Position numbers and translations under genes: made by a program. A DNA stretch of 64,000 nucleotides from an uncultured Eubacteriales bacterium (lineage in GTDB: Bacteria; Bacillota; Clostridia; Oscillospirales; Oscillospiraceae), in assembly GCA_949283375.1 (NCBI GenBank), contig CASDSM010000012.1, positions 44,827 through 108,826 on the forward strand, given 5' to 3'. A model generated the notes under the pieces. The model was not told the origin of the DNA. It did no database searches and saw only the letters and a program-made list of their open reading frames with translations. Of this stretch, positions 2,557-41,366 are shown one piece after another. Position 1 is the stretch's first letter. The number at the start of each line of letters is the position of its first letter.

Positions 2557-3530
2557 GAGATCAGTTTGGCCGCGAGATCGACTATCTCCGCCTCTCTGTC
2601 ACCGACCGCTGCGGCTTTCGCTGCCGTTACTGCGTGAGCGGCGCGGGCGGCCCCTTCCTCCCGGAGGGGGACCTGCTGACGGACGGGGAGCTGGAGCGGG
2701 TGGTCCGCGCGGCCGCCTCCCTCGGCGTCACCCGCCTCAAGCTCACCGGCGGTGAGCCGCTCAACCGTCCCGGCATCGCCGCCCTCGCGGCCCGGCTGGG
2801 GGCGGTGGACGGCATCCGCTCGCTCACCCTCACCACGAACGGCGCCGCCCTCGCCCCCCTCGCGCGCGGCCTGCGCGCAGCCGGGGTGCGGGAGGTGAAC
2901 CTCAGCCTGGACACCCTCGACCGCGCGCGCTTTCTCGCCCTCACCGGGGTGGACGCCCTTGACCGGGTGCTCGCCGGGCTGGACGCGGCGGTGGAGGCGG
3001 GCTTTGAACGGGTGAAGCTCAACTGCGTCACCGGGCAGGACCTCGGCCAGGGGGACCCCGCCGCCCTGGCGGAGCTGGCGCTGGCGCGGGCGGTGGACGT
3101 GCGCTATATCGAGTCCATGCCCATCGGCTGCGGCAGGACCTTTCACCCGGTCACGCGCGCGCAGATGCTGCGCCGCCTGACGGATCGCTATGGACCGCTT
3201 CTCCCCGCCGGAGAGCGGGGCAACGGCCCGGCAGAGTATTACCGCATCCCCGGCTTTGCCGGACGGATCGGCTTTATCAGCGCGGTGAGCGAGCCGTTCT
3301 GCGCCGGATGCAACCGCATCCGCCTCACGCCGGACGGGCAGCTCAAGCCCTGCCTGCAATACCGCCCCACGCTGGACGTGCGCACCCTGCTGCGCGCCGG
3401 CGTTTCGGACGAGGCGCTGCGCGATGCGCTGCGTGAGGCGGTCTGGCAAAAGCCGCGCGCGCATCAGTTTGCACACCCCGCTGCGGGAGAGCGATTGGAA
3501 GACCGGCCCATGTCCGCCATCGGCGGCTGA
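2553..3530 (+). CDS. moaA: GTP 3',8-cyclase (radical SAM)
   Basis: YLRLSVTDRCGFRCRYC, LTGGEP, FCAGCNRIRLT...LKPCL and C-terminal MSAIGG; ATG at 2553 overlaps the upstream stop. Confidence 0.95.
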   Translation: MRDQFGREIDYLRLSVTDRCGFRCRYCVSGAGGPFLPEGDLLTDGELERVVRAAASLGVTRLKLTGGEPLNRPGIAALAARLGAVDGIRSLTLTTNGAALAPLARGLRAAGVREVNLSLDTLDRARFLALTGVDALDRVLAGLDAAVEAGFERVKLNCVTGQDLGQGDPAALAELALARAVDVRYIESMPIGCGRTFHPVTRAQMLRRLTDRYGPLLPAGERGNGPAEYYRIPGFAGRIGFISAVSEPFCAGCNRIRLTPDGQLKPCLQYRPTLDVRTLLRAGVSDEALRDALREAVWQKPRAHQFAHPAAGERLEDRPMSAIGG

Positions 3531-3555
3531 GGCCGGCGGGAAAGGAGAGAGGGCG

Positions 3556-4518
3556 ATGGGAATCCTGAGAGGGATCTGCATCAGCCAGCGGCGCGGCATC
3601 GCCAAGCGCCCCTGTGAGGAGATCGACCTGATCGAGGGCTTCGGCCTGGCGGGGGACGCCCACGGCGGCCCCTGGCACCGTCAGGTCAGCCTGCTGGCAA
3701 AGGAATCGGTGGACGCGTTCAACGCCGCAGGCGGCGGCGTCGGTCCGGGCGATTTCGGAGAAAATCTCATTGTGGAGGGCTTTGACCTGCGCCATCTCCC
3801 GGTGGGCGTTTGCTTCCAAATCGGAGACGCCCTGCTGGAGATGACCCAGATTGGCAAGGAGTGCCACAGCCACTGCGAGATCTACCACCGGGTGGGCCAC
3901 TGCATCATGCCGGCCAACGGCGTCTTTGCCGAGGTGCGGCGGGGCGGCCATATCCGCGTGGGGGACGAGGTGTGCCTGGTGCCCAATCCGGACCGGCGTC
4001 CCACCGTCGCCGTCGTCACGCTGAGCGACAAGGGCGCGCGCGGCGCGCGCACGGACGAGAGCGGCCCGCTCGCGGCGCGCATGGCGGAGGAGGCGGGCTA
4101 CCGCGTGGTGGAGACCCTCCTCCTCCCGGACGAGCAGTCCCGGCTGGAGCGCGAGCTCTGCCGCCTCGCGGACGGCCGTCAGGTCGCTCTGGTGCTCACC
4201 ACCGGCGGCACCGGCTTCTCCCCGCGCGACCGCACGCCGGAGGCCACCCTGGCCGTCGCCGAGCGCAACGCCCCCGGCATCGCCGAGGCGATGCGCTGGC
4301 ACTCGCTCCAGATCACCCCGCGCGCCATGCTCAGCCGCGGCGCGAGCGTGATCCGTGGCAAGACCCTGATCGTTAACCTGCCGGGCAGCCCGAAGGCGGT
4401 GCGGGAGCACCTGGAGTTCCTCCTGCCCAACCTGGCGCACGGCATCCAGATCTTGCGGGGGGAGGCCGCCGAGTGCGGCCATCCGGCCCACCCGCCCAAA
4501 AAGGAGGAAACGACATGA
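3556..4518 (+). CDS. MOSC domain fused to MogA/MoaB molybdopterin adenylyltransferase domain
   Basis: N-half GDAH...RQVSLL, FGENL, QIGKECH; C-half SDK, TTGGTGFSPRD.TPEAT, SRG, NLPGSPKA; RBS AAAGGAG. Confidence 0.88.
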   Translation: MGILRGICISQRRGIAKRPCEEIDLIEGFGLAGDAHGGPWHRQVSLLAKESVDAFNAAGGGVGPGDFGENLIVEGFDLRHLPVGVCFQIGDALLEMTQIGKECHSHCEIYHRVGHCIMPANGVFAEVRRGGHIRVGDEVCLVPNPDRRPTVAVVTLSDKGARGARTDESGPLAARMAEEAGYRVVETLLLPDEQSRLERELCRLADGRQVALVLTTGGTGFSPRDRTPEATLAVAERNAPGIAEAMRWHSLQITPRAMLSRGASVIRGKTLIVNLPGSPKAVREHLEFLLPNLAHGIQILRGEAAECGHPAHPPKKEETT

Positions 4519-6137
4519 GCGACCGCATGCATCCCATCCCCTTTGAGCAGCTCCTGCTGAGCGTCCTGCGCGAGATGAGGGAGAGCGGCTCCGTCCTCTC
4601 CGTCCCCGCCGTCCGTCCGCCCCACCGCCCCACGCCGTTCTGCGGCGGCACGCTGGAGACTCCGCTCGGCCCCGCCGCCGGGCCGCACACCCAGCTGGCC
4701 GGCAACCTCGCCGCCGCCTACGCCGCCGGAGCCCGCGTCTTTGAGCTCAAGACGGTGCAGATCATTGACGGGGAGGACCTGCCGGTAGAGAAGCCCTGCA
4801 TCTATGTGGACGGCGAGTGCTACAACGTGGAGTGGTCCACCGAGCTGACCGTCCCCCAGGCGAGTGCGGAGTACGTCAAGGCGTGGATTCTGATCCACCT
4901 GCTCGCGCGGGAATTTGACCTGGGCAGCCCGGAGGGCTTCCAGTTCCACATGTCGGTGGGCTATGATCTCGACGGCCTGCGCTCGGAGAAGGTGGACCGC
5001 TTTATCGAGGAGATGAAGGACGCCTCCCGCTCTCCCGTCTGGGACAGCTGCCTGGAGACGGTGCGCCGCCACCTGGACCTCTTCCAGAAGGTGACGGCGG
5101 CGGATGTGGACGCCATCCCCACCCGCATCTGCAACACTGTCACCCTCTCCACCATGCACGGCTGTCCGGTGGACGAGATCGAGCGCATGGTCTCCTACAT
5201 GCTGGTGGACAAGGGGCTCAACACCTTTCTCAAGTGCAATCCCACCCTGGTCGGCTATGAGCAGGCCCGCCGGGTGCTGGACGAAAACGGCTACGACTAC
5301 CTCAGCTTCGGCCCGGAGGGCTTCGCCCGCGACCTCCAGCCGGACTACGCCGTGGAGATGCTCCGCCGCCAGACGGAGCTGGCCCGCGCGCACGGAAAGA
5401 TTCTGGGCGTCAAGCTGACCAACACCTTCCCGGTCGCCATCTGCAACCGCGAGCTCCCGGGGGAGACGATGTACCTGTCCGGAAAGCCCCTCTTCCTGCT
5501 TGCCATCCGCACGGCGCAGCTTCTCTCGGACGCCTTTGGCGGCGCGCTCCCCGTCTCCTTCTCCGGCGGCATCGACGCGCACAATATCGCCGCGGTGCTC
5601 TCCACCGGCATCGCCCCAGTGACGGTGGCCACCCTGCTGCTGAAAAACGGCGGCTACCGCAATCTAACCCGCCTGGCTGCCCTTGTCCCGGAAAGAATTC
5701 CCGCCCAGGTGGACTGCGCGGCCCTCGGCAGGCTGATCGGGGAGACGGCGGCGGACCCCTACTACCACAAGGAGAAGCCCCGCCGCAAGGTGGCGCGGCA
5801 GATACCGGACGACCCCGCCTGCTACCGCTGCCGCAACTGCGTGGACGTCTGTCCCAACCGGGCGAACGTCCCCCTCCCCGCGCTCAAGCGGGCGGTCCAT
5901 ATCGAGGGCCTCTGCAACGAGTGCGGCAACTGTGTCTGCTTCTGCCCGTTTGGCTACCTGCCCTACCGGGATAAGTTCACCCTCTTCTCCAGCCGCGCGG
6001 AGATGGCGGCCAGTGGGAACGACGGGTTCTGCGCCGAGGACGGCTCGGTCCGCTACGCCGGGACGGTCTACACCGGCGCGGAGGCGATGGAGGCCATCCC
6101 GGAGACCCTGCGCGCCGTGGTGGAGGCAATTTCGTGA
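4515..6137 (+). CDS. YgfK-like flavo-iron-sulfur protein, short form (FMN TIM barrel plus C-terminal ferredoxin)
   Basis: MSDRMHPIPF, GPAAGPHTQLA, FELKTVQ, KPCI, YNVEWSTEL, TLSTMHGCP, KCNPTL, KLTNTFPV; CxxCxxCxxxCP and CNECGNC..FCP; RBS AAGGAGG. Confidence 0.8.
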   Translation: MSDRMHPIPFEQLLLSVLREMRESGSVLSVPAVRPPHRPTPFCGGTLETPLGPAAGPHTQLAGNLAAAYAAGARVFELKTVQIIDGEDLPVEKPCIYVDGECYNVEWSTELTVPQASAEYVKAWILIHLLAREFDLGSPEGFQFHMSVGYDLDGLRSEKVDRFIEEMKDASRSPVWDSCLETVRRHLDLFQKVTAADVDAIPTRICNTVTLSTMHGCPVDEIERMVSYMLVDKGLNTFLKCNPTLVGYEQARRVLDENGYDYLSFGPEGFARDLQPDYAVEMLRRQTELARAHGKILGVKLTNTFPVAICNRELPGETMYLSGKPLFLLAIRTAQLLSDAFGGALPVSFSGGIDAHNIAAVLSTGIAPVTVATLLLKNGGYRNLTRLAALVPERIPAQVDCAALGRLIGETAADPYYHKEKPRRKVARQIPDDPACYRCRNCVDVCPNRANVPLPALKRAVHIEGLCNECGNCVCFCPFGYLPYRDKFTLFSSRAEMAASGNDGFCAEDGSVRYAGTVYTGAEAMEAIPETLRAVVEAIS

Positions 6138-37141: not shown

Positions 37142-38842
37142 ATGCTCTCTCTGCTTCACATTGAAAATATCGCCGTCATCCAGTCGGCGGACATCCAGTT
37201 TGACGCCGGCTTCAACGTGCTCACCGGCGAGACGGGCGCGGGCAAATCCATCGTGGTGGACGCCATCGGGGCCATCCTCGGCGCGCGCACCAGCCGCGAC
37301 CTCATCCGGACCGGGGCGAAATCCGCCCTGGTGAGCGCGCAGTTCACCGGTGTGGCGGACCTGCCGTGGCTGGGAGAGAACGGGTTTGCCTTGGAGGACG
37401 GCGGCCTGATTCTGCAACGCCAGATTTTCCCGAACGGGCGCAATCTCTGCCGGCTGAACGGCCGGCCGGTCACTGTGGCACAGATGCAGGAGCTGGGCCG
37501 CCAGCTCATCAACATCCACGGCCAGCACGACGGGCAGCAGCTGCTCGACCCGGCGTGCCATCTCTCCTATCTCGACAGCTTTGGAGAGACCGGCGCCCTG
37601 CTCGCGGACTTCCAGGCGAGCTACACCGCCGTCTCCCGTCTTTCCCGGGAAATCCAGAGCCTCCAGATGGACGAGGCGGAGAAGGCCCGCCGGATGGACG
37701 CCCTGGACTATCAGATCCACGAGCTGGAGCGGGCGAACCTCCAGCCCGGCGAGGACCGGGAGCTGGCCGCCCGCCGCCAGATGCTGCGCAATGCCGGACG
37801 CCTGCTCGACGGCTTACAGGAGGCGGACTTCGCCCTCTCCGGTGGAGAGGAAGGGGATGGAGCCATCTCTCTGCTCGGGCAGGCAGAGGGCGCCCTGCGC
37901 GGCATCAGCCGCTATTCCGACGAGCTGGCCGGCCTCTCCGAGCAGCTCGCCGAGCTGCGCTATACGCTCGAGGACCTGGCGGAGCAGGTCGCCCGCCAGC
38001 GCGACCGGATGGAGGTCTCCCCCGGCGAGCTGGACCAGCTGGAGGGCCGTCTGGACGTCATCTACCGCCTGCGGAAGAAGTACGGCGACACGGTGGAGGA
38101 TATGCTCGCCTACCTCGCGCGCTGCCGCGCCGAGCGCGAGCAGATCGAGTACGCCTCCGACCGGATTGAGCAGCTCGAGCGCCAGCTCCAGAAGGCGCTG
38201 GCGGAGACGCGGGAGAAGGGGAGCGCCCTCTCCGAGGCCCGCCGCGCCGCGGCGGAGCGGATGCGCGCGCGCATCGAGCGGGAGCTCGCAGAGCTGGACA
38301 TGCCCAGGGTCCGCTTCCAGGTGGCCTTCTCTCCGAAGGAGGGGCGCTACCAGATGGACGAGACGGGCATGGACGAGGTGCAGTTTCTCATGTCCGCCAA
38401 CGTGGGGGAGGACCTGAAGCCCATCCACAAGATCGCCTCCGGCGGCGAGCTGGCGCGCATCATGCTGGCGCTGAAAAACGTGCTGGCGGAGAATGAGGCG
38501 GTGGCCACCCTGGTCTTTGACGAGGTGGATACCGGCGTCTCCGGCCGCGCCGCGCAGAAGGTGGCGCGCAAGATGTCGGACGTCGCCCGGCATAAGCAGG
38601 TGCTCTGCGTCACCCATCTGCCCCAGATTGCCGCCATGGCGGACGTCCACTTCTCGGTGGAGAAGGGCGAGCGCGACGGACGGACCTATACCGCCGTCGA
38701 GCAGCTCGACCGCGCAGCGCGCAAGCGGGAGCTGGCCCGCCTGGCGGGCGGCGAAAAGATCACCGACGCCCTGCTCCAGAGCGCAGGTGAGATGCTGGAT
38801 CAGGCGGAGGGGTATAAGCGAGGTGCTCGCCGTGACGGCTGA
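37142..38842 (+). CDS. recN: DNA repair protein RecN
   Basis: L.IEN.A.I, LTGETGAGKS, IHGQH, SGGE..R.MLA, FDEVD.GVSG, QV.C.THLPQ.AA. Confidence 0.97.
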   Translation: MLSLLHIENIAVIQSADIQFDAGFNVLTGETGAGKSIVVDAIGAILGARTSRDLIRTGAKSALVSAQFTGVADLPWLGENGFALEDGGLILQRQIFPNGRNLCRLNGRPVTVAQMQELGRQLINIHGQHDGQQLLDPACHLSYLDSFGETGALLADFQASYTAVSRLSREIQSLQMDEAEKARRMDALDYQIHELERANLQPGEDRELAARRQMLRNAGRLLDGLQEADFALSGGEEGDGAISLLGQAEGALRGISRYSDELAGLSEQLAELRYTLEDLAEQVARQRDRMEVSPGELDQLEGRLDVIYRLRKKYGDTVEDMLAYLARCRAEREQIEYASDRIEQLERQLQKALAETREKGSALSEARRAAAERMRARIERELAELDMPRVRFQVAFSPKEGRYQMDETGMDEVQFLMSANVGEDLKPIHKIASGGELARIMLALKNVLAENEAVATLVFDEVDTGVSGRAAQKVARKMSDVARHKQVLCVTHLPQIAAMADVHFSVEKGERDGRTYTAVEQLDRAARKRELARLAGGEKITDALLQSAGEMLDQAEGYKRGARRDG

Positions 38843-39008
38843 TTGTGGTCTATTGCGCCCGAAAGAAGAGATCAGGAAGAGAGTCTTGGCGGCCAAGAGA
38901 CGTCAAGGCTCTTTTTGTTTACTTTTTCCGATTGCTTCTGAATTCGTCAGGCATCTTAATAGATACCTTTAACTGTGTTCTATCAAATGAAGGAGAGTGC
39001 TATCTCAT

Positions 39009-39545
39009 CTAATCTATTAATCTATTTTCTATGAGATAATGGCTCATATTGCGTACCTGAGGATATCCTCTTGTTTGATAAATCAATTTGTTGTCATCAA
39101 AGCTAAACCCGAACATTTTATCATCTTTCGTGTTATCTTTCTTCTGTTTGACTTCTGACATAAACAAAGCCATTTCTTTGTTTGTGAACGCCAACATAAT
39201 GGTGTCCCATACTGTGCTTCTTGCTTTTGCACTTGACGGGGCGTCAGGATATTTTGCATAGATACCGACTAATATATACCAATTTGCATTTTCCTGAATG
39301 GTAAAACGGTTAAACCACAGGGAATATGGGAAATCTGCATTTTTCTTTTCGCTATAATAGGTTCTTGACATCTTAATTTGAACCGTGGAGGTTTTGTTGC
39401 ATCCATGGTCATAGCGATATAGCAACAGATCGATTCCCTTTTCCTGTGCTGATGCTGGGATAAATACGGATGCGCCCTTTATTCTTTTTGAGAGATAATC
39501 CGCAACTGCAAACTCTCCGTATTGCATTGTAAAAATCGGTTGCAT
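39009..39545 (-). CDS. AT-rich orphan protein, probable PD-(D/E)xK nuclease-like fold
   Basis: RBS AGGAGG before ATG 39545; GE..VA..L helix, KGIDLL strand and VQIK; about 35-40% GC. Confidence 0.6.
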   Translation of the reverse strand: MQPIFTMQYGEFAVADYLSKRIKGASVFIPASAQEKGIDLLLYRYDHGCNKTSTVQIKMSRTYYSEKKNADFPYSLWFNRFTIQENANWYILVGIYAKYPDAPSSAKARSTVWDTIMLAFTNKEMALFMSEVKQKKDNTKDDKMFGFSFDDNKLIYQTRGYPQVRNMSHYLIENRLID

Positions 39546-39587
39546 TTTTCCTCCTATTTTTAAAGCGTTGAGAATCATGTTATATTC

Positions 39588-39616
39588 ATTTTACCAGATT
39601 CACAGTCATCACTCAA
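39588..39616 (-). promoter_or_regulatory. sigmaA promoter of the AT-rich orphan gene
   Basis: minus strand TTGAGT-17 nt-TAAAAT. Confidence 0.55.
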
Positions 39617-39710
39617 TCTCTATTTCTTTATGAAACCTTAATCTCTCTTTCAGAGAAAAGACAGCTTCGTGTGCTATCCTGTCAGAAACAGACGGAGGGG
39701 GCGCGCTGAG

Positions 39711-39767
39711 ATGGAATTGAGTGGTATTCTGATTTTCCTGGCATTTCTGGTCATGTTGCTGCGCTGA
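39711..39767 (+). CDS. Candidate 18-aa hydrophobic small protein MELSGILIFLAFLVMLLR
   Basis: GGAGGGGG 9 nt before ATG; upstream TG-extended TATCCT; nearly entirely hydrophobic. Confidence 0.45.
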   Translation: MELSGILIFLAFLVMLLR

Positions 39768-39774
39768 TTTCCGG

Positions 39775-39803
39775 TTGACAAGGCCGGAGAGACATGCTAC
39801 AAT
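39775..39803 (+). promoter_or_regulatory. sigmaA promoter of tyrS leader
   Basis: TTGACA-17 nt-TACAAT. Confidence 0.85.
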
Positions 39804-39809
39804 ACACCA

Positions 39810-40095
39810 CAGTGATTGCGATGACGAGGAATAGTATCGCGGCATCCTCTGCCAAGAGAGCCCCCGGTCGGTGGAAGGGGGAGAGAGCGCCGTCGAGAAT
39901 ACCCCTCTGAGCAGCCACCTGAACGGGAGAAGGGAACTGCTCCCCAGTAGGGCAGGCCGGGTGTGCCCGTTACAGCACCGGAGTTTGTCAGAACTCCCTG
40001 AGGCCCCTTCTCGTGAGAGCGGGGCGAACCAGAGGTGGTACCGCGCATTTTGCGCCCTCTGTCCCAGAAGCGGGGACGGAGGGCGTTGTTATTTT
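39810..40095 (+). ncRNA. T-box riboswitch, Tyr specifier
   Basis: AGAGAG and GGTGGAA stem I loops; specifier TAC at 39900-39902; T-box AGAGGTGGTACCGCG at 40031-40045; terminator CGCCCTCTGTCCC...GGGGACGGAGGGCG plus T-rich tail. Confidence 0.92.
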
Positions 40096-40133: not shown

Positions 40134-41366
40134 ATGACACTGTACGAGGAACTGACCGGCCGCGGCCTGATCGCCCAGGTTACCGACGAGGAAAAAGTGA
40201 AAGAGATGATCAACAACGGCAAAGCCACCTTCTATATCGGCTTTGACCCCACGGCGGACTCTCTCCATGTGGGCCACTTTATGGCCCTGTGCCTGATGCG
40301 CCGGATGCAGAAGCACGGCAACCGGCCCATCGCCCTGCTGGGCGGCGGTACTGCCATGATCGGCGACCCCTCCGGGAAGAGCGATATGCGCCAAATGATG
40401 ACCCGAGAGACCATTGAGCACAATGCCGCCTGCTTCAAGAAGCAGATGAGCCGCTTTATCGACTTCTCCGATGGCAAGGCTCTGATGCTCAACAACGCCG
40501 ACTGGCTGCTGGACTTGAACTATGTCGAGCTGCTGCGAGAGGTAGGGGCCTGCTTTTCGGTGAACAATATGCTGCGCGCCGAGTGCTACAAGCAGCGGAT
40601 GGAGCGCGGCCTGAGCTTCCTGGAGTTTAACTATATGATCATGCAGTCCTACGACTTCTACCACCTGTACCAAGAGTACGGCTGCAACTTCCAGTTCGGC
40701 GGCGACGACCAGTGGTCCAATATGCTCGGCGGCCGGGAGCTGATTCGCCGGAAGCTGGGGAAATATGACGCCGAGGCGATGACTATCACTCTCCTGCTCA
40801 ATTCCGAGGGCAAGAAGATGGGCAAGACGGTCTCCGGTGCCGTGTGGCTGGACCCGGAGAAGACCTCACCCTATGACTTCTATCAGTACTGGCGCAACGT
40901 GGATGACGCGGACGTGATCAAGTGCCTGAAGATGCTCACCGATGTCCCCTTGGAGGAGATCGCGAAGATGGAGTCCTGGGAGGGCAGCCAGCTCAACCGC
41001 GCGAAGGAGATTCTCGCCTATGAGCTGACCAACCTGGTCCACGGCAAGGAAGAGGCAGACAAGGCCCAGGAGACAGCTCGGAGCCTGTTCTGCGGTGGCG
41101 GTGGTACCGTGTCCGATATGCCGGAGACGTGTATTTCTCCAGAGGACCTGACAGACGGGGCAATCGGACTGGTGAAACTGCTTACCCTGACCGGCCTGGC
41201 CAGCTCTAACGGTGATGCGCGCCGGACGCTCACAAAGGACAAGTGTGTCTGTGTGAACGGGGAACGCGTCTGTGACGCGGGCTATCAGGTGCCTGCCGAA
41301 GCTCTCACCGGCGACGGCGTGGTCCTGCGCAAGGGGAAGAAAATTTATCACCGCGTCCATCTGTAA
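40134..41366 (+). CDS. tyrS: Tyrosine-tRNA ligase
   Basis: Y.GFDPTADSLHVGH, GG.TA.IGDPSG, QSYDF, QFGGDDQW.N, KMGKT, C-terminal S4 domain RKGKK. Confidence 0.97.
   Translation: MTLYEELTGRGLIAQVTDEEKVKEMINNGKATFYIGFDPTADSLHVGHFMALCLMRRMQKHGNRPIALLGGGTAMIGDPSGKSDMRQMMTRETIEHNAACFKKQMSRFIDFSDGKALMLNNADWLLDLNYVELLREVGACFSVNNMLRAECYKQRMERGLSFLEFNYMIMQSYDFYHLYQEYGCNFQFGGDDQWSNMLGGRELIRRKLGKYDAEAMTITLLLNSEGKKMGKTVSGAVWLDPEKTSPYDFYQYWRNVDDADVIKCLKMLTDVPLEEIAKMESWEGSQLNRAKEILAYELTNLVHGKEEADKAQETARSLFCGGGGTVSDMPETCISPEDLTDGAIGLVKLLTLTGLASSNGDARRTLTKDKCVCVNGERVCDAGYQVPAEALTGDGVVLRKGKKIYHRVHL

What the first reader, a model, noticed from the sequence alone, without database searches (positions are those of the whole stretch)
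39009..39616. Solitary AT-rich nuclease-like gene inserted where spoIVB-spo0A usually follow recN
Seen: a ~600-bp patch at roughly 35-40% GC with its own TTGAGT-17-TAAAAT promoter and AGGAGG RBS. The protein has E in an N-terminal helix, GID and VQIK, the spacing of a PD-(D/E)xK/QxK nuclease core. No methyltransferase, antitoxin or integrase is adjacent. Established: solitary restriction-like nucleases in small accessory islands are often anti-phage genes, and recN is commonly followed by spoIVB-spo0A in spore formers. Inference: a horizontally acquired single-gene defence candidate at a synteny breakpoint.
Basis: partly seen in the sequence, partly recalled or inferred. Interest (0 to 1): 0.65.

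Follow-up and report, generated by a model that had tools for sequence, protein, structure and literature searches.

The report
Orphan DREN-like nuclease gene islet
A foreign, AT-rich single gene wedged between recN and tyrS encodes a small DNA-cutting enzyme of the type used by Argonaute-linked immunity. It is the stranded, slightly truncated half of an undescribed two-gene cassette that travels on small mobile elements in gut bacteria.

Summary
About 920 bp at 38% GC lies in a 65% GC genome between the recN stop and the tyrS promoter/T-box leader. It carries one gene (39009-39545, minus strand, 178 aa) with its own extended -10 promoter, RBS and terminator. Five of seven congeners have recN followed directly by tyrS. 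None of 60 relatives has the gene.

The protein is a confident PD-(D/E)xK fold (pLDDT 93.7). Its best structural matches are the DREN (DUF4365) nuclease domains of SPARDA. It has the same D-QxK catalytic motif (E11, D39, Q56, K58).

- In 37 of 44 homologous loci the gene is followed by a DUF6508 gene. The two are fused in Spirochaetales, and the pair is often the end cargo of a ~7.7-kb integrase/resolvase element. Here the partner is absent.
- An 8-bp tandem duplication (39010-39025) frameshifts the last 8 codons.

The spoIVB-spo0A "synteny breakpoint" is not real for this genus.

Neither protein is in PADLOC, and no held paper mentions DUF6508. The cassette is a plausible but untested defence or element-benefit module. 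This copy is an orphan remnant of uncertain activity.

The parts
37142..38842 (+). recN, the native left flank
   Evidence: 566-aa ORF. It is 67-78% identical to RecN of congeners. SMC_N/AAA_23 Pfam hits on the identical contig.
38843..39774 (.). Inserted DNA between the recN stop and the tyrS -35 box (about 920 bp; exact junctions not definable). The AT-rich core is about 38885-39660.
   Evidence: In 5 of 7 congeners the recN stop is followed within 10-60 nt by the tyrS promoter. GC profile.
38881..38920 (.). Hairpin (GAGTCTTG...CAAGGCTC) followed by a T-run on the + strand. It can act as the recN terminator and lies downstream of the nuclease gene.
   Evidence: Sequence. The arm AAAAGAGCCTTGAC is shared with the terminators just after orphan homologues in L038, L040 and L066. 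The simple terminator scan did not call it because the loop exceeds 8 nt.
38983..39008 (-). Out-of-frame remnant of the ancestral C-terminus (DEIALSFI-stop)
   Evidence: Frame 0 of the minus strand reads NRLDEIALSFI**. This matches the conserved tail ENR[LI][DE]EIxxSF[ILT] of close homologues.
39010..39025 (.). Perfect 8-bp tandem duplication (TAATCTAT x2) that frameshifts the gene's last codons
   Evidence: the repeat finder D15 and sequence. It is also present in a 99.9%-identical contig from an independent metagenome assembly.
39009..39545 (-). Gene X: a 178-aa DREN-like PD-(D/E)xK nuclease, ending ...ENRLID* instead of ...ENRLDEIALSFI*
   Evidence: Translation. AF2 model pLDDT 93.7. Foldseek best hits are SPARDA DREN-APAZ chains, then R.SwaI, EcoRV and HinP1I, and a phage DUF4365 protein. 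Conserved E11, D39, Q56, K58.
39550..39555 (-). Ribosome-binding site AGGAGG, 4 nt before the ATG
   Evidence: Sequence.
39588..39616 (-). Sigma-70-type promoter of gene X: TTGAGT-17-TAAAAT with a TG extension
   Evidence: A comparable promoter stands upstream of homologues.
39711..39767 (+). 18-codon hydrophobic mini-ORF (MELSGILIFLAFLVMLLR) with a GGAGGGGG RBS, inside the inserted DNA; status unknown
   Evidence: Sequence. It is absent from the recN-tyrS spacer of five congeners.
39775..39803 (+). tyrS promoter TTGACA-17-TACAAT, where the native right flank resumes
   Evidence: It aligns with the promoter that directly follows recN in congener G008.
39812..40062 (+). T-box leader of tyrS
   Evidence: Rfam RF00230, 101.9 bits, E=1.2e-22.
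40134..41366 (+). tyrS (tyrosyl-tRNA synthetase), the native right flank
   Evidence: ORF. It is 77-86% identical to the gene downstream of recN in congeners. tRNA-synt_1b Pfam hit.

Best explanation
The patch is a horizontally acquired mini-islet of about 920 bp. It holds one stranded gene (X) from a mobile two-gene cassette.

X is a small, stand-alone, probably Mg2+-dependent nuclease of the PD-(D/E)xK superfamily. It is closest in fold and catalytic motif (D39, Q56-x-K58, plus E11 on helix 1) to the DREN/DUF4365 nuclease domain of SPARDA.

In its usual form X is co-transcribed with, or fused to, a DUF6508 protein (Y) of unknown fold. The X-Y pair rides as the terminal cargo of a ~7.7-kb integrase/resolvase element, or as a tiny islet between housekeeping genes.

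Inferred: the cassette is an accessory nucleic-acid-targeting module, either anti-phage/anti-plasmid defence or an element-benefit function. In it Y would regulate or target X, possibly by controlling its oligomerisation, which is how DREN is switched on in SPARDA.

In this genome Y is missing and an 8-bp duplication has replaced the conserved 8-residue C-terminal tail. This copy is therefore an orphan whose activity is uncertain. It may still work as a solitary nuclease, as other orphan copies appear to, or it may be starting to decay.
For: Insertion and horizontal transfer:
- GC is 37.6% against 65.2% for the window.
- The gene is absent from 60 relatives.
- Five congeners show an empty recN-tyrS site.
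- Homologues keep 33-42% GC even in hosts whose flanks are 58-67% GC.
- They occur in Clostridia, Lachnospiraceae, Erysipelotrichaceae, Spirochaetales and other bins at 61-81% identity.

Nuclease fold:
- AF2 pLDDT is 93.7.
- The 11 best PDB matches are DREN-APAZ chains (prob 0.85-0.99), followed by R.SwaI, EcoRV and HinP1I.
- The best viral match is a DUF4365 protein.
- 48 of 87 family members weakly hit PF14280.
- NbaSPARDA DREN uses D41/Q60/K62, and the isolated domain is monomeric and inactive (PMC12205087).
- The family conserves E11, D39, Q56 and K58.

Partner Y:
- Y is DUF6508 (E 1e-15).
- It follows X in 37 of 44 independently sampled loci that have enough downstream sequence.
- X-Y fusions exist (L045, L046, P0121, P0122).

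Mobile context:
- X-Y sits next to a resolvase plus tyrosine integrase at the end of a shared element that is inserted at different host sites.

Orphan copies can be functional:
- The orphan loci L038 and L040 share flanks and give dN/dS 0.015.

The frameshift is real:
- The same allele is on a 99.9%-identical contig of another assembly.
Against:
- X fails every curated model: Pfam, NCBIfam, PADLOC and PHROGs.
- Profile-profile comparison with a small DUF4365 alignment is not significant. Only the catalytic motif aligns, at E=0.015.
- TM-scores to DREN are low (0.30-0.37).
- Defence association is modest. Many X-Y and orphan loci lie between housekeeping genes. DUF6508 also occurs in metabolic neighbourhoods.
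- No match in 50,697 phage or 72,556 plasmid records.
- The truncated tail is conserved in close homologues, so this copy may be impaired.
Confidence: 0.62

Rival explanations
1. X-Y is a toxin-antitoxin or addiction module of the integrative element, with the nuclease X as toxin and Y as antitoxin. The copy here survived loss of Y only because the 3' frameshift, or low expression, disarmed it.
For: - X and Y are tightly coupled or overlapping small genes at the edge of a mobile element.
- The nuclease is of a type that kills cells in SPARDA.
- This orphan copy carries a frameshift.
Against: - Intact orphan X genes without Y exist in several hosts (L001, L038, L040, L043, L047).
- Orphan copies are under strong purifying selection (dN/dS 0.015).
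- X and Y occur as single fused polypeptides, which is unusual for toxin-antitoxin pairs.
- The isolated DREN domain is inactive on its own.
Confidence: 0.12
2. X is a solitary type IV-like (modification-dependent) or otherwise self-sufficient restriction nuclease. It works without Y, so the copy here is a functional single-gene defence.
For: - Orphan X copies are conserved.
- 7 of 87 members weakly hit Mrr_cat.
- Y also follows McrC in a McrBC operon of Lancefieldella rimae, beside AbiTii and AbiE genes.
- A distant X relative sits in an operon with an HsdR-like ATPase that lacks its nuclease head and an Stk2-like kinase.
Against: - No recognisable DNA-binding or modification-reading domain.
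- 84% of sampled loci keep Y.
- This copy has lost its conserved C-terminal tail.
- No PADLOC model matches.
Confidence: 0.15
3. X is a free-standing, homing-endonuclease-like selfish gene that spreads by cutting empty sites.
For: - DREN structurally resembles the PD-(D/E)xK homing endonuclease I-Ssp6803I (PMC12205087).
- Similarity between loci is confined to the ORF.
- Copies sit as single-gene islets in intergenic spacers.
Against: - Insertion sites differ in every host and share no flanking homology.
- Most copies are linked to Y and to an integrase-bearing element, which explains the mobility.
- No intron or intein context.
Confidence: 0.05
4. X is a housekeeping repair or recombination nuclease that works with RecN.
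For: It lies adjacent to recN.
Against: - X is convergent with recN and has its own promoter.
- It is absent from all 60 relatives and has foreign composition.
- Its neighbours differ in every other host.
Confidence: 0.02

Closest known systems
DREN (DUF4365, PF14280) nuclease domain of SPARDA DREN-APAZ effectors (NbaSPARDA 9jsz/9jt2, XauSPARDA 9qcc, 9vx6)
   Same: - Best structural matches (Foldseek prob 0.85-0.99).
- An N-terminal helix bearing an acidic residue, and the same D...QxK catalytic motif at nearly the same positions (D39/Q56/K58 against D41/Q60/K62).
- Similar size of the nuclease core.
   Different: - No APAZ domain and no Argonaute partner.
- X has its own ~80-residue C-terminal extension with an invariant R159-G160.
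- X is not recognised by the PF14280 model.
- Its partner is DUF6508 instead of a pAgo.
- Activation by tetramerisation is only an analogy.
Mrr-type / type IV restriction nucleases (Mrr_cat, PF04471) and McrBC
   Same: - D-(Q/E)xK PD-(D/E)xK core.
- Solitary, with no methyltransferase.
- The partner family DUF6508 also follows McrC in one McrBC operon.
   Different: - Only 7 of 87 members give weak Mrr_cat hits.
- No winged-helix reader domain and no GTPase motor.
Type II restriction endonucleases R.SwaI, EcoRV and HinP1I
   Same: Shared PD-(D/E)xK fold (ranks 12-16).
   Different: - Low scores (prob 0.28-0.77, TM 0.24-0.37).
- No cognate methyltransferase nearby.
- Much smaller protein.
Accessory cargo genes at the ends of phage satellites and small integrative islands (PICI-type defence hotspots; from my own knowledge)
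   Same: X-Y sits immediately after the integrase/resolvase at the edge of a ~7.7-kb element that also encodes HNH_3, DUF5681 and a PC4-like protein. The element is inserted at different host sites.
   Different: The element has not been shown to be a satellite. In the window no element remains, only the one gene.

Membership tests
PD-(D/E)xK nuclease superfamily | [quoted passage not shown] | tested here: met
   AF2 model pLDDT 93.7, pTM 0.89. The 16 best PDB hits (ranks 1-16) and the named BFVD hits are PD-(D/E)xK proteins.
PD-(D/E)xK nuclease superfamily | Acidic residue on helix 1, D on strand 2 and (D/E/Q)xK on strand 3, all conserved | tested here: met
   D39 and Q56 are invariant. E11 and K58 are at least 90% conserved in 87 sequences.
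Pfam DUF4365 / DREN (PF14280) | Match to the family HMM above its gathering score | tested here: not met
   P0001 gives no PF14280 hit even at E<=10. A six-frame search of the own genome with PF14280 finds nothing. 48 of 87 relatives give weak hits, best 1.1e-5. hhalign against 5 bona fide members aligns only the GID...QVK segment, E=0.015.
Pfam DUF4365 / DREN (PF14280) | D-Q-x-K catalytic residues as in NbaSPARDA (D41, Q60, K62) | tested here: met
   D39, Q56 and K58, compared with PMC12205087.
SPARDA system | Nuclease fused to APAZ and encoded next to a short pAgo | tested here: not met
   The protein is 178 aa with no APAZ. Its neighbours are recN and tyrS. No Ago was seen in any homologous locus examined.
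Type II restriction-modification | Cognate DNA methyltransferase in the same locus | tested here: not met
   None within the islet or its flanks. The only PADLOC hit is a spurious MTase_II match at E=0.016.
Type II toxin-antitoxin | Adjacent small antitoxin gene, with the toxin lethal when alone | tested here: not met
   No partner in the window. Orphan homologues are intact and under purifying selection. Toxicity itself is not testable here.
X-DUF6508 cassette (defined in this report) | X followed within about 30 nt by, or fused to, a DUF6508 (PF20118) gene | tested here: not met
   37 of 44 sampled loci have it. The window has no Y-like sequence in any frame, so it is an orphan derivative.
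Homing endonuclease gene | Recurrent insertion at one conserved target, or in an intron or intein | tested here: not met
   Flanks differ in every host, and similarity ends at the ORF.
Known anti-phage defence systems (PADLOC-DB 2.0.0) | Match to a model of a known or candidate system | tested here: not met
   No significant hit for X, Y, the fusions or divergent members.

The most novel reading that the evidence does not exclude
The X-DUF6508 pair is an undescribed two-gene (sometimes one-chain) immune or interference system carried by small integrative, satellite-like elements of gut anaerobes. A stand-alone DREN-like nuclease would be held inactive and then switched on by the DUF6508 protein, whose confidently predicted fold has no solved relative. 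That would be an Argonaute-independent way of arming a DREN nuclease. DUF6508 would then be a portable regulator of nucleases, since it also follows McrC and is fused to an ADP-ribosylglycohydrolase elsewhere. Orphan X copies such as this one would be solitary nucleases retained by their hosts.
Probability: 0.3. Interest if true: 0.65.

Novelty: new variant of a known kind. Interest (0 to 1): 0.45.

Why it matters
- It adds a compact (184 aa) stand-alone relative of the SPARDA DREN nuclease.
- It gives the first functional lead for DUF6508: a conserved operon and fusion partner of a nuclease. No paper in the held library mentions this family.
- If the pair proves to be a defence or interference module, it would show a second, Argonaute-free way of controlling a DREN-type nuclease. 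It would also name a common cargo of a small integrative element family in gut Clostridia. One X-Y allele is listed in more than 4,000 blocks of the assembly index.
- For this genome the practical message is more modest. The gene is a recent foreign passenger, partnerless and frameshifted at its tip. It is not a break in sporulation-gene synteny.

Tried and rejected
- Direct family assignment of X failed. Pfam, NCBIfam, PADLOC, PHROGs and PDB sequence searches gave only noise (HDNR, MTase_II, PI3K).
- hhalign of the X family against five bona fide DUF4365 domains was not significant.
- The idea that the 257-aa gene upstream of X in L003 is a DUF6508 relative was rejected. Only an 8-residue tail (LNRLKEI) aligns, and Pfam gives no hit.
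- No remnant of Y was found in the window.
- No target-site duplications or terminal inverted repeats bound the islet. The only candidate is an 11/12 direct repeat, CAG(G/A)CGGAGGGG, at 38801 and 39689. It is too short to tell from chance.
- The 'UvrD' helicase near X in L006 and L036 is probably housekeeping PcrA, since it has a tudor domain and sits next to an RlmD-like methyltransferase. I do not count it as a defence context.
- Phage and plasmid collections gave no match.
- Foldseek of the DUF6508 model against the PDB found nothing; the best E-value was 2.5.
- The Bacillus altitudinis DUF6508 neighbours are not X-like.

Full report
**1. The observation**

The window is 65.2% GC, but 38880-39700 is 37.9% GC and the gene itself is 37.6%. 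One ORF fills the patch, on the minus strand.
- The longest reading starts at 39578. The start behind the AGGAGG box (39550-39555) is at 39545 and gives a 178-aa protein beginning MQPIF. All homologues start there.
A comparable box (TTGAxT...TGnTAAAAT) precedes homologues in other genomes.
- The flanks are recN (37142-38842, +) and a T-box leader (39812-40062, Rfam 101.9 bits) with tyrS (40134-41366, +).
- No methyltransferase, integrase or small partner gene is present.

**2. It is an insertion, but not a sporulation-synteny breakpoint**

The gene is unique in its own genome. It is absent from 36 species of the same genus and 24 of the same order.

In five of seven congeners examined, the recN stop is followed within 10-60 nt by the tyrS promoter and T-box. 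The distance from the recN end to the tyrS start is 374-438 nt there, against 1298 nt here. So about 920 bp (38843-39774) were inserted into a native recN-tyrS spacer.

spo0A and spoIVB exist in this genome but on other contigs. The recN-spoIVB-spo0A order of Bacillus is therefore not the ancestral state here.

One congener (G006) has a different insertion at the same place: a 359-aa membrane protein, a duplicated 3' fragment of recN and an HD-like 179-aa protein. The spacer may be a recurrent landing site.

The identical locus is on a 470-kb metagenome scaffold. A 99.9%-identical copy is on a contig of another assembly. The islet therefore exists in natural populations.

**3. The protein**

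No curated model recognises it: Pfam, NCBIfam, PADLOC, PHROGs and PDB sequences all fail. It belongs to a real family, though.
- 311 proteins are at least 69% identical.
- 257 clusters at 50% identity match among 1.8 billion representatives. Nearly all are single-domain proteins of 170-200 aa.
- In 87 diverse members P30, D39 and Q56 are invariant. M1, F5, E11, S32, K58, S60, R159 and G160 are at least 90% conserved.
- 48 of the 87 give weak hits to DUF4365 and 7 to Mrr_cat.

An AlphaFold2 model built on that alignment is confident (pLDDT 93.7, pTM 0.89).
- Its 11 best PDB matches are all DREN-APAZ chains of SPARDA complexes (9jsz, 9jt2, 9qcc, 9vx6; probability 0.85-0.99, though TM is only 0.30-0.37). 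R.SwaI, EcoRV, MepB and HinP1I follow.
- The best viral match is a DUF4365 protein of Leptospira phage LE1.

The NbaSPARDA paper gives D41, Q60 and K62 as the DREN catalytic residues. It also reports that the isolated DREN domain is monomeric and inactive until it is tetramerised on the Argonaute filament (PMC12205087). X has D39, Q56 and K58.

A profile-profile comparison with five bona fide DUF4365 domains aligned only this motif and was not significant. A PF14280 search of the own genome finds nothing. I therefore file X as a sister family of DUF4365 within the PD-(D/E)xK superfamily, not as a member.

**4.

(a) A missing partner.
- In loci sampled through X from genomes, metagenomes and IMG/VR, X is followed within 12-30 nt (or overlapped) by a 133-161-aa gene. 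That gene is DUF6508 (PF20118, E about 1e-15).
- Counting only loci with at least 450 nt of downstream sequence, 37 of 44 have it.
- In Spirochaetales bins and in two library representatives, the two are one polypeptide (L045, L046, P0121, P0122).
- The window has no trace of Y in any frame.

(b) A frameshift.
- A perfect 8-bp tandem duplication (TAATCTAT x2, 39010-39025, family D15) shifts the frame after ...ENRL. The gene ends ID* instead of DEIALSFI*.
- The ancestral tail is still readable out of frame, down to a TGA at 38983-38985.
- It fits the conserved tail ENR[LI][DE]EIxxSF[ILT] of close homologues.
- The lesion is therefore recent. It is present in the second assembly too.

**5. Mobility and context**

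DNA similarity between the window and 25 homologous loci stops at the ORF ends. Promoter architecture and one terminator arm (AAAAGAGCCTTGAC) are shared with other orphan copies.

The gene is AT-rich (33-42% GC) even where its flanks are 58-67% GC. It occurs in Clostridium liquoris (two copies), Porcincola, Evtepia, Stomatobaculum, Lachnospiraceae, Oscillospiraceae, Erysipelotrichaceae and Spirochaetales. It also occurs on short contigs binned as Akkermansia and Bacteroidales.

Only 1 of 400 other genomes of the phylum has any family member.

In many loci X-Y is the last cargo of a shared ~7.7-kb element inserted at different host sites. The element encodes a PC4-like protein, DUF5681, an HNH_3 endonuclease, a resolvase and a tyrosine integrase. 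In one genome X-Y is flanked by IS66 copies.

Elsewhere X-Y or X alone is a tiny islet between housekeeping genes, as it is here. One such X-Y allele is listed in 4,076 blocks of the assembly index.

There is no match in 50,697 phage or 72,556 plasmid records.

**6. Is it defence?**

Evidence for:
- The family is accessory, patchy and horizontally spread, and it rides at the edge of integrative elements.
- One orphan copy lies about 4 kb from an MmeI/Eco57I-type enzyme.
- A distant X relative sits in an operon with an HsdR-like ATPase that lacks its nuclease head and an Stk2/PD-T4-6-like kinase.
- DUF6508 on its own follows McrC in a McrBC operon next to AbiTii and AbiE genes in Lancefieldella rimae.

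Evidence against or neutral:
- PADLOC has no model for X, Y or the fusions.
- No held paper mentions DUF6508.
- The DUF6508 model is confident (pLDDT 93.5) but has no structural relative in the PDB (best E 2.5).
- DUF6508 is more widespread than X (10 of 401 genomes). It also occurs beside esterases, LigB and ZIP transporters, after WYL/WCX regulators, and fused to an ADP-ribosylglycohydrolase.

I put defence or interference at roughly even odds for the cassette.

A classical toxin-antitoxin reading is weakened in three ways:
- Intact orphan X genes exist.
- dN/dS is 0.015 between two orphan copies that share flanks.
- X-Y fusions exist.

**7. Mechanism**

Shown:
- The foreign islet and its promoter, RBS, ORF and terminator.
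- The PD-(D/E)xK fold with an intact D-QxK motif.
- The conserved operon and fusion link to DUF6508.
- The loss of Y and of the C-terminal tail here.

Inferred:
- X is a metal-dependent DNase.
- Y regulates or targets it, perhaps through oligomerisation as in DREN.
- The cassette benefits its mobile element or host by attacking foreign nucleic acid.
- The copy here is either a weakened solitary nuclease or an early pseudogene.

**8. Limits**

The exact insertion junctions cannot be fixed because the spacer is not conserved between species. The origin of the 8-bp duplication (slippage, or a transposon footprint) cannot be decided.

Noticed in passing
window 39711-39767 (+): An 18-codon hydrophobic mini-ORF (MELSGILIFLAFLVMLLR) with a GGAGGGGG RBS lies between the nuclease promoter and the tyrS promoter. 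It is part of the inserted DNA, because five congeners lack it in the recN-tyrS spacer. No similar sequence was found near homologues.
   Followed up: partly
L026 (congener G006) 2975-5546: A different insertion sits at the same recN-tyrS spacer: a 359-aa membrane protein, a duplicated 3' fragment of recN (residues ~452-560, 83% identical) and an HD-like 179-aa protein. This suggests the spacer is a recurrent recombination site in the genus.
   Followed up: partly
L089 1300-9012; also L091, L092, L032, L034, L037, L039, L050, L052, L070-L074: A ~7.7-kb integrative element family carries a PC4-like protein, a 329-aa unknown, DUF5681, an HNH_3/NUMOD4 endonuclease, a resolvase and a tyrosine integrase, with X-DUF6508 as terminal cargo. 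It is inserted at different host sites and is possibly a phage satellite. Clostridium liquoris DSM 100320 has two copies.
   Followed up: partly
L083 2779-7187 (Lancefieldella rimae): DUF6508 overlaps the end of McrC in a McrB-McrC-DUF6508-AbiTii row, within an island that also has AbiEi/AbiEii and a type I RM fragment.
   Followed up: no
L120 3417-4475 (-): A 352-aa protein fuses an ADP-ribosylglycohydrolase domain to the C-terminal half of DUF6508. This hints that DUF6508 is a portable module attached to different enzymes.
   Followed up: no
L122 2460-8569 (-): An operon holds an HsdR-like SWI2/SNF2 ATPase lacking the N-terminal nuclease region, an Stk2/PD-T4-6-like Ser/Thr kinase, a 141-aa unknown, a distant X-family nuclease (186 aa), and 284-aa and 161-aa unknowns. 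It is a candidate multi-gene defence system.
   Followed up: partly
L064 and L067, just downstream of X: The DUF6508 gene starts normally (MHKKLTAYLSTLEADGFGKWIVD...) but diverges after PIQ and no full ORF was called. It is probably a decaying partner, an intermediate on the way to orphan X.
   Followed up: no
window 38801-38812 and 39689-39700: An 11/12 direct repeat, CAG(G/A)CGGAGGGG, stands 888 nt apart, one copy in the 3' end of recN and one near the right edge of the inserted DNA. It could be a recombination footprint or chance.
   Followed up: no
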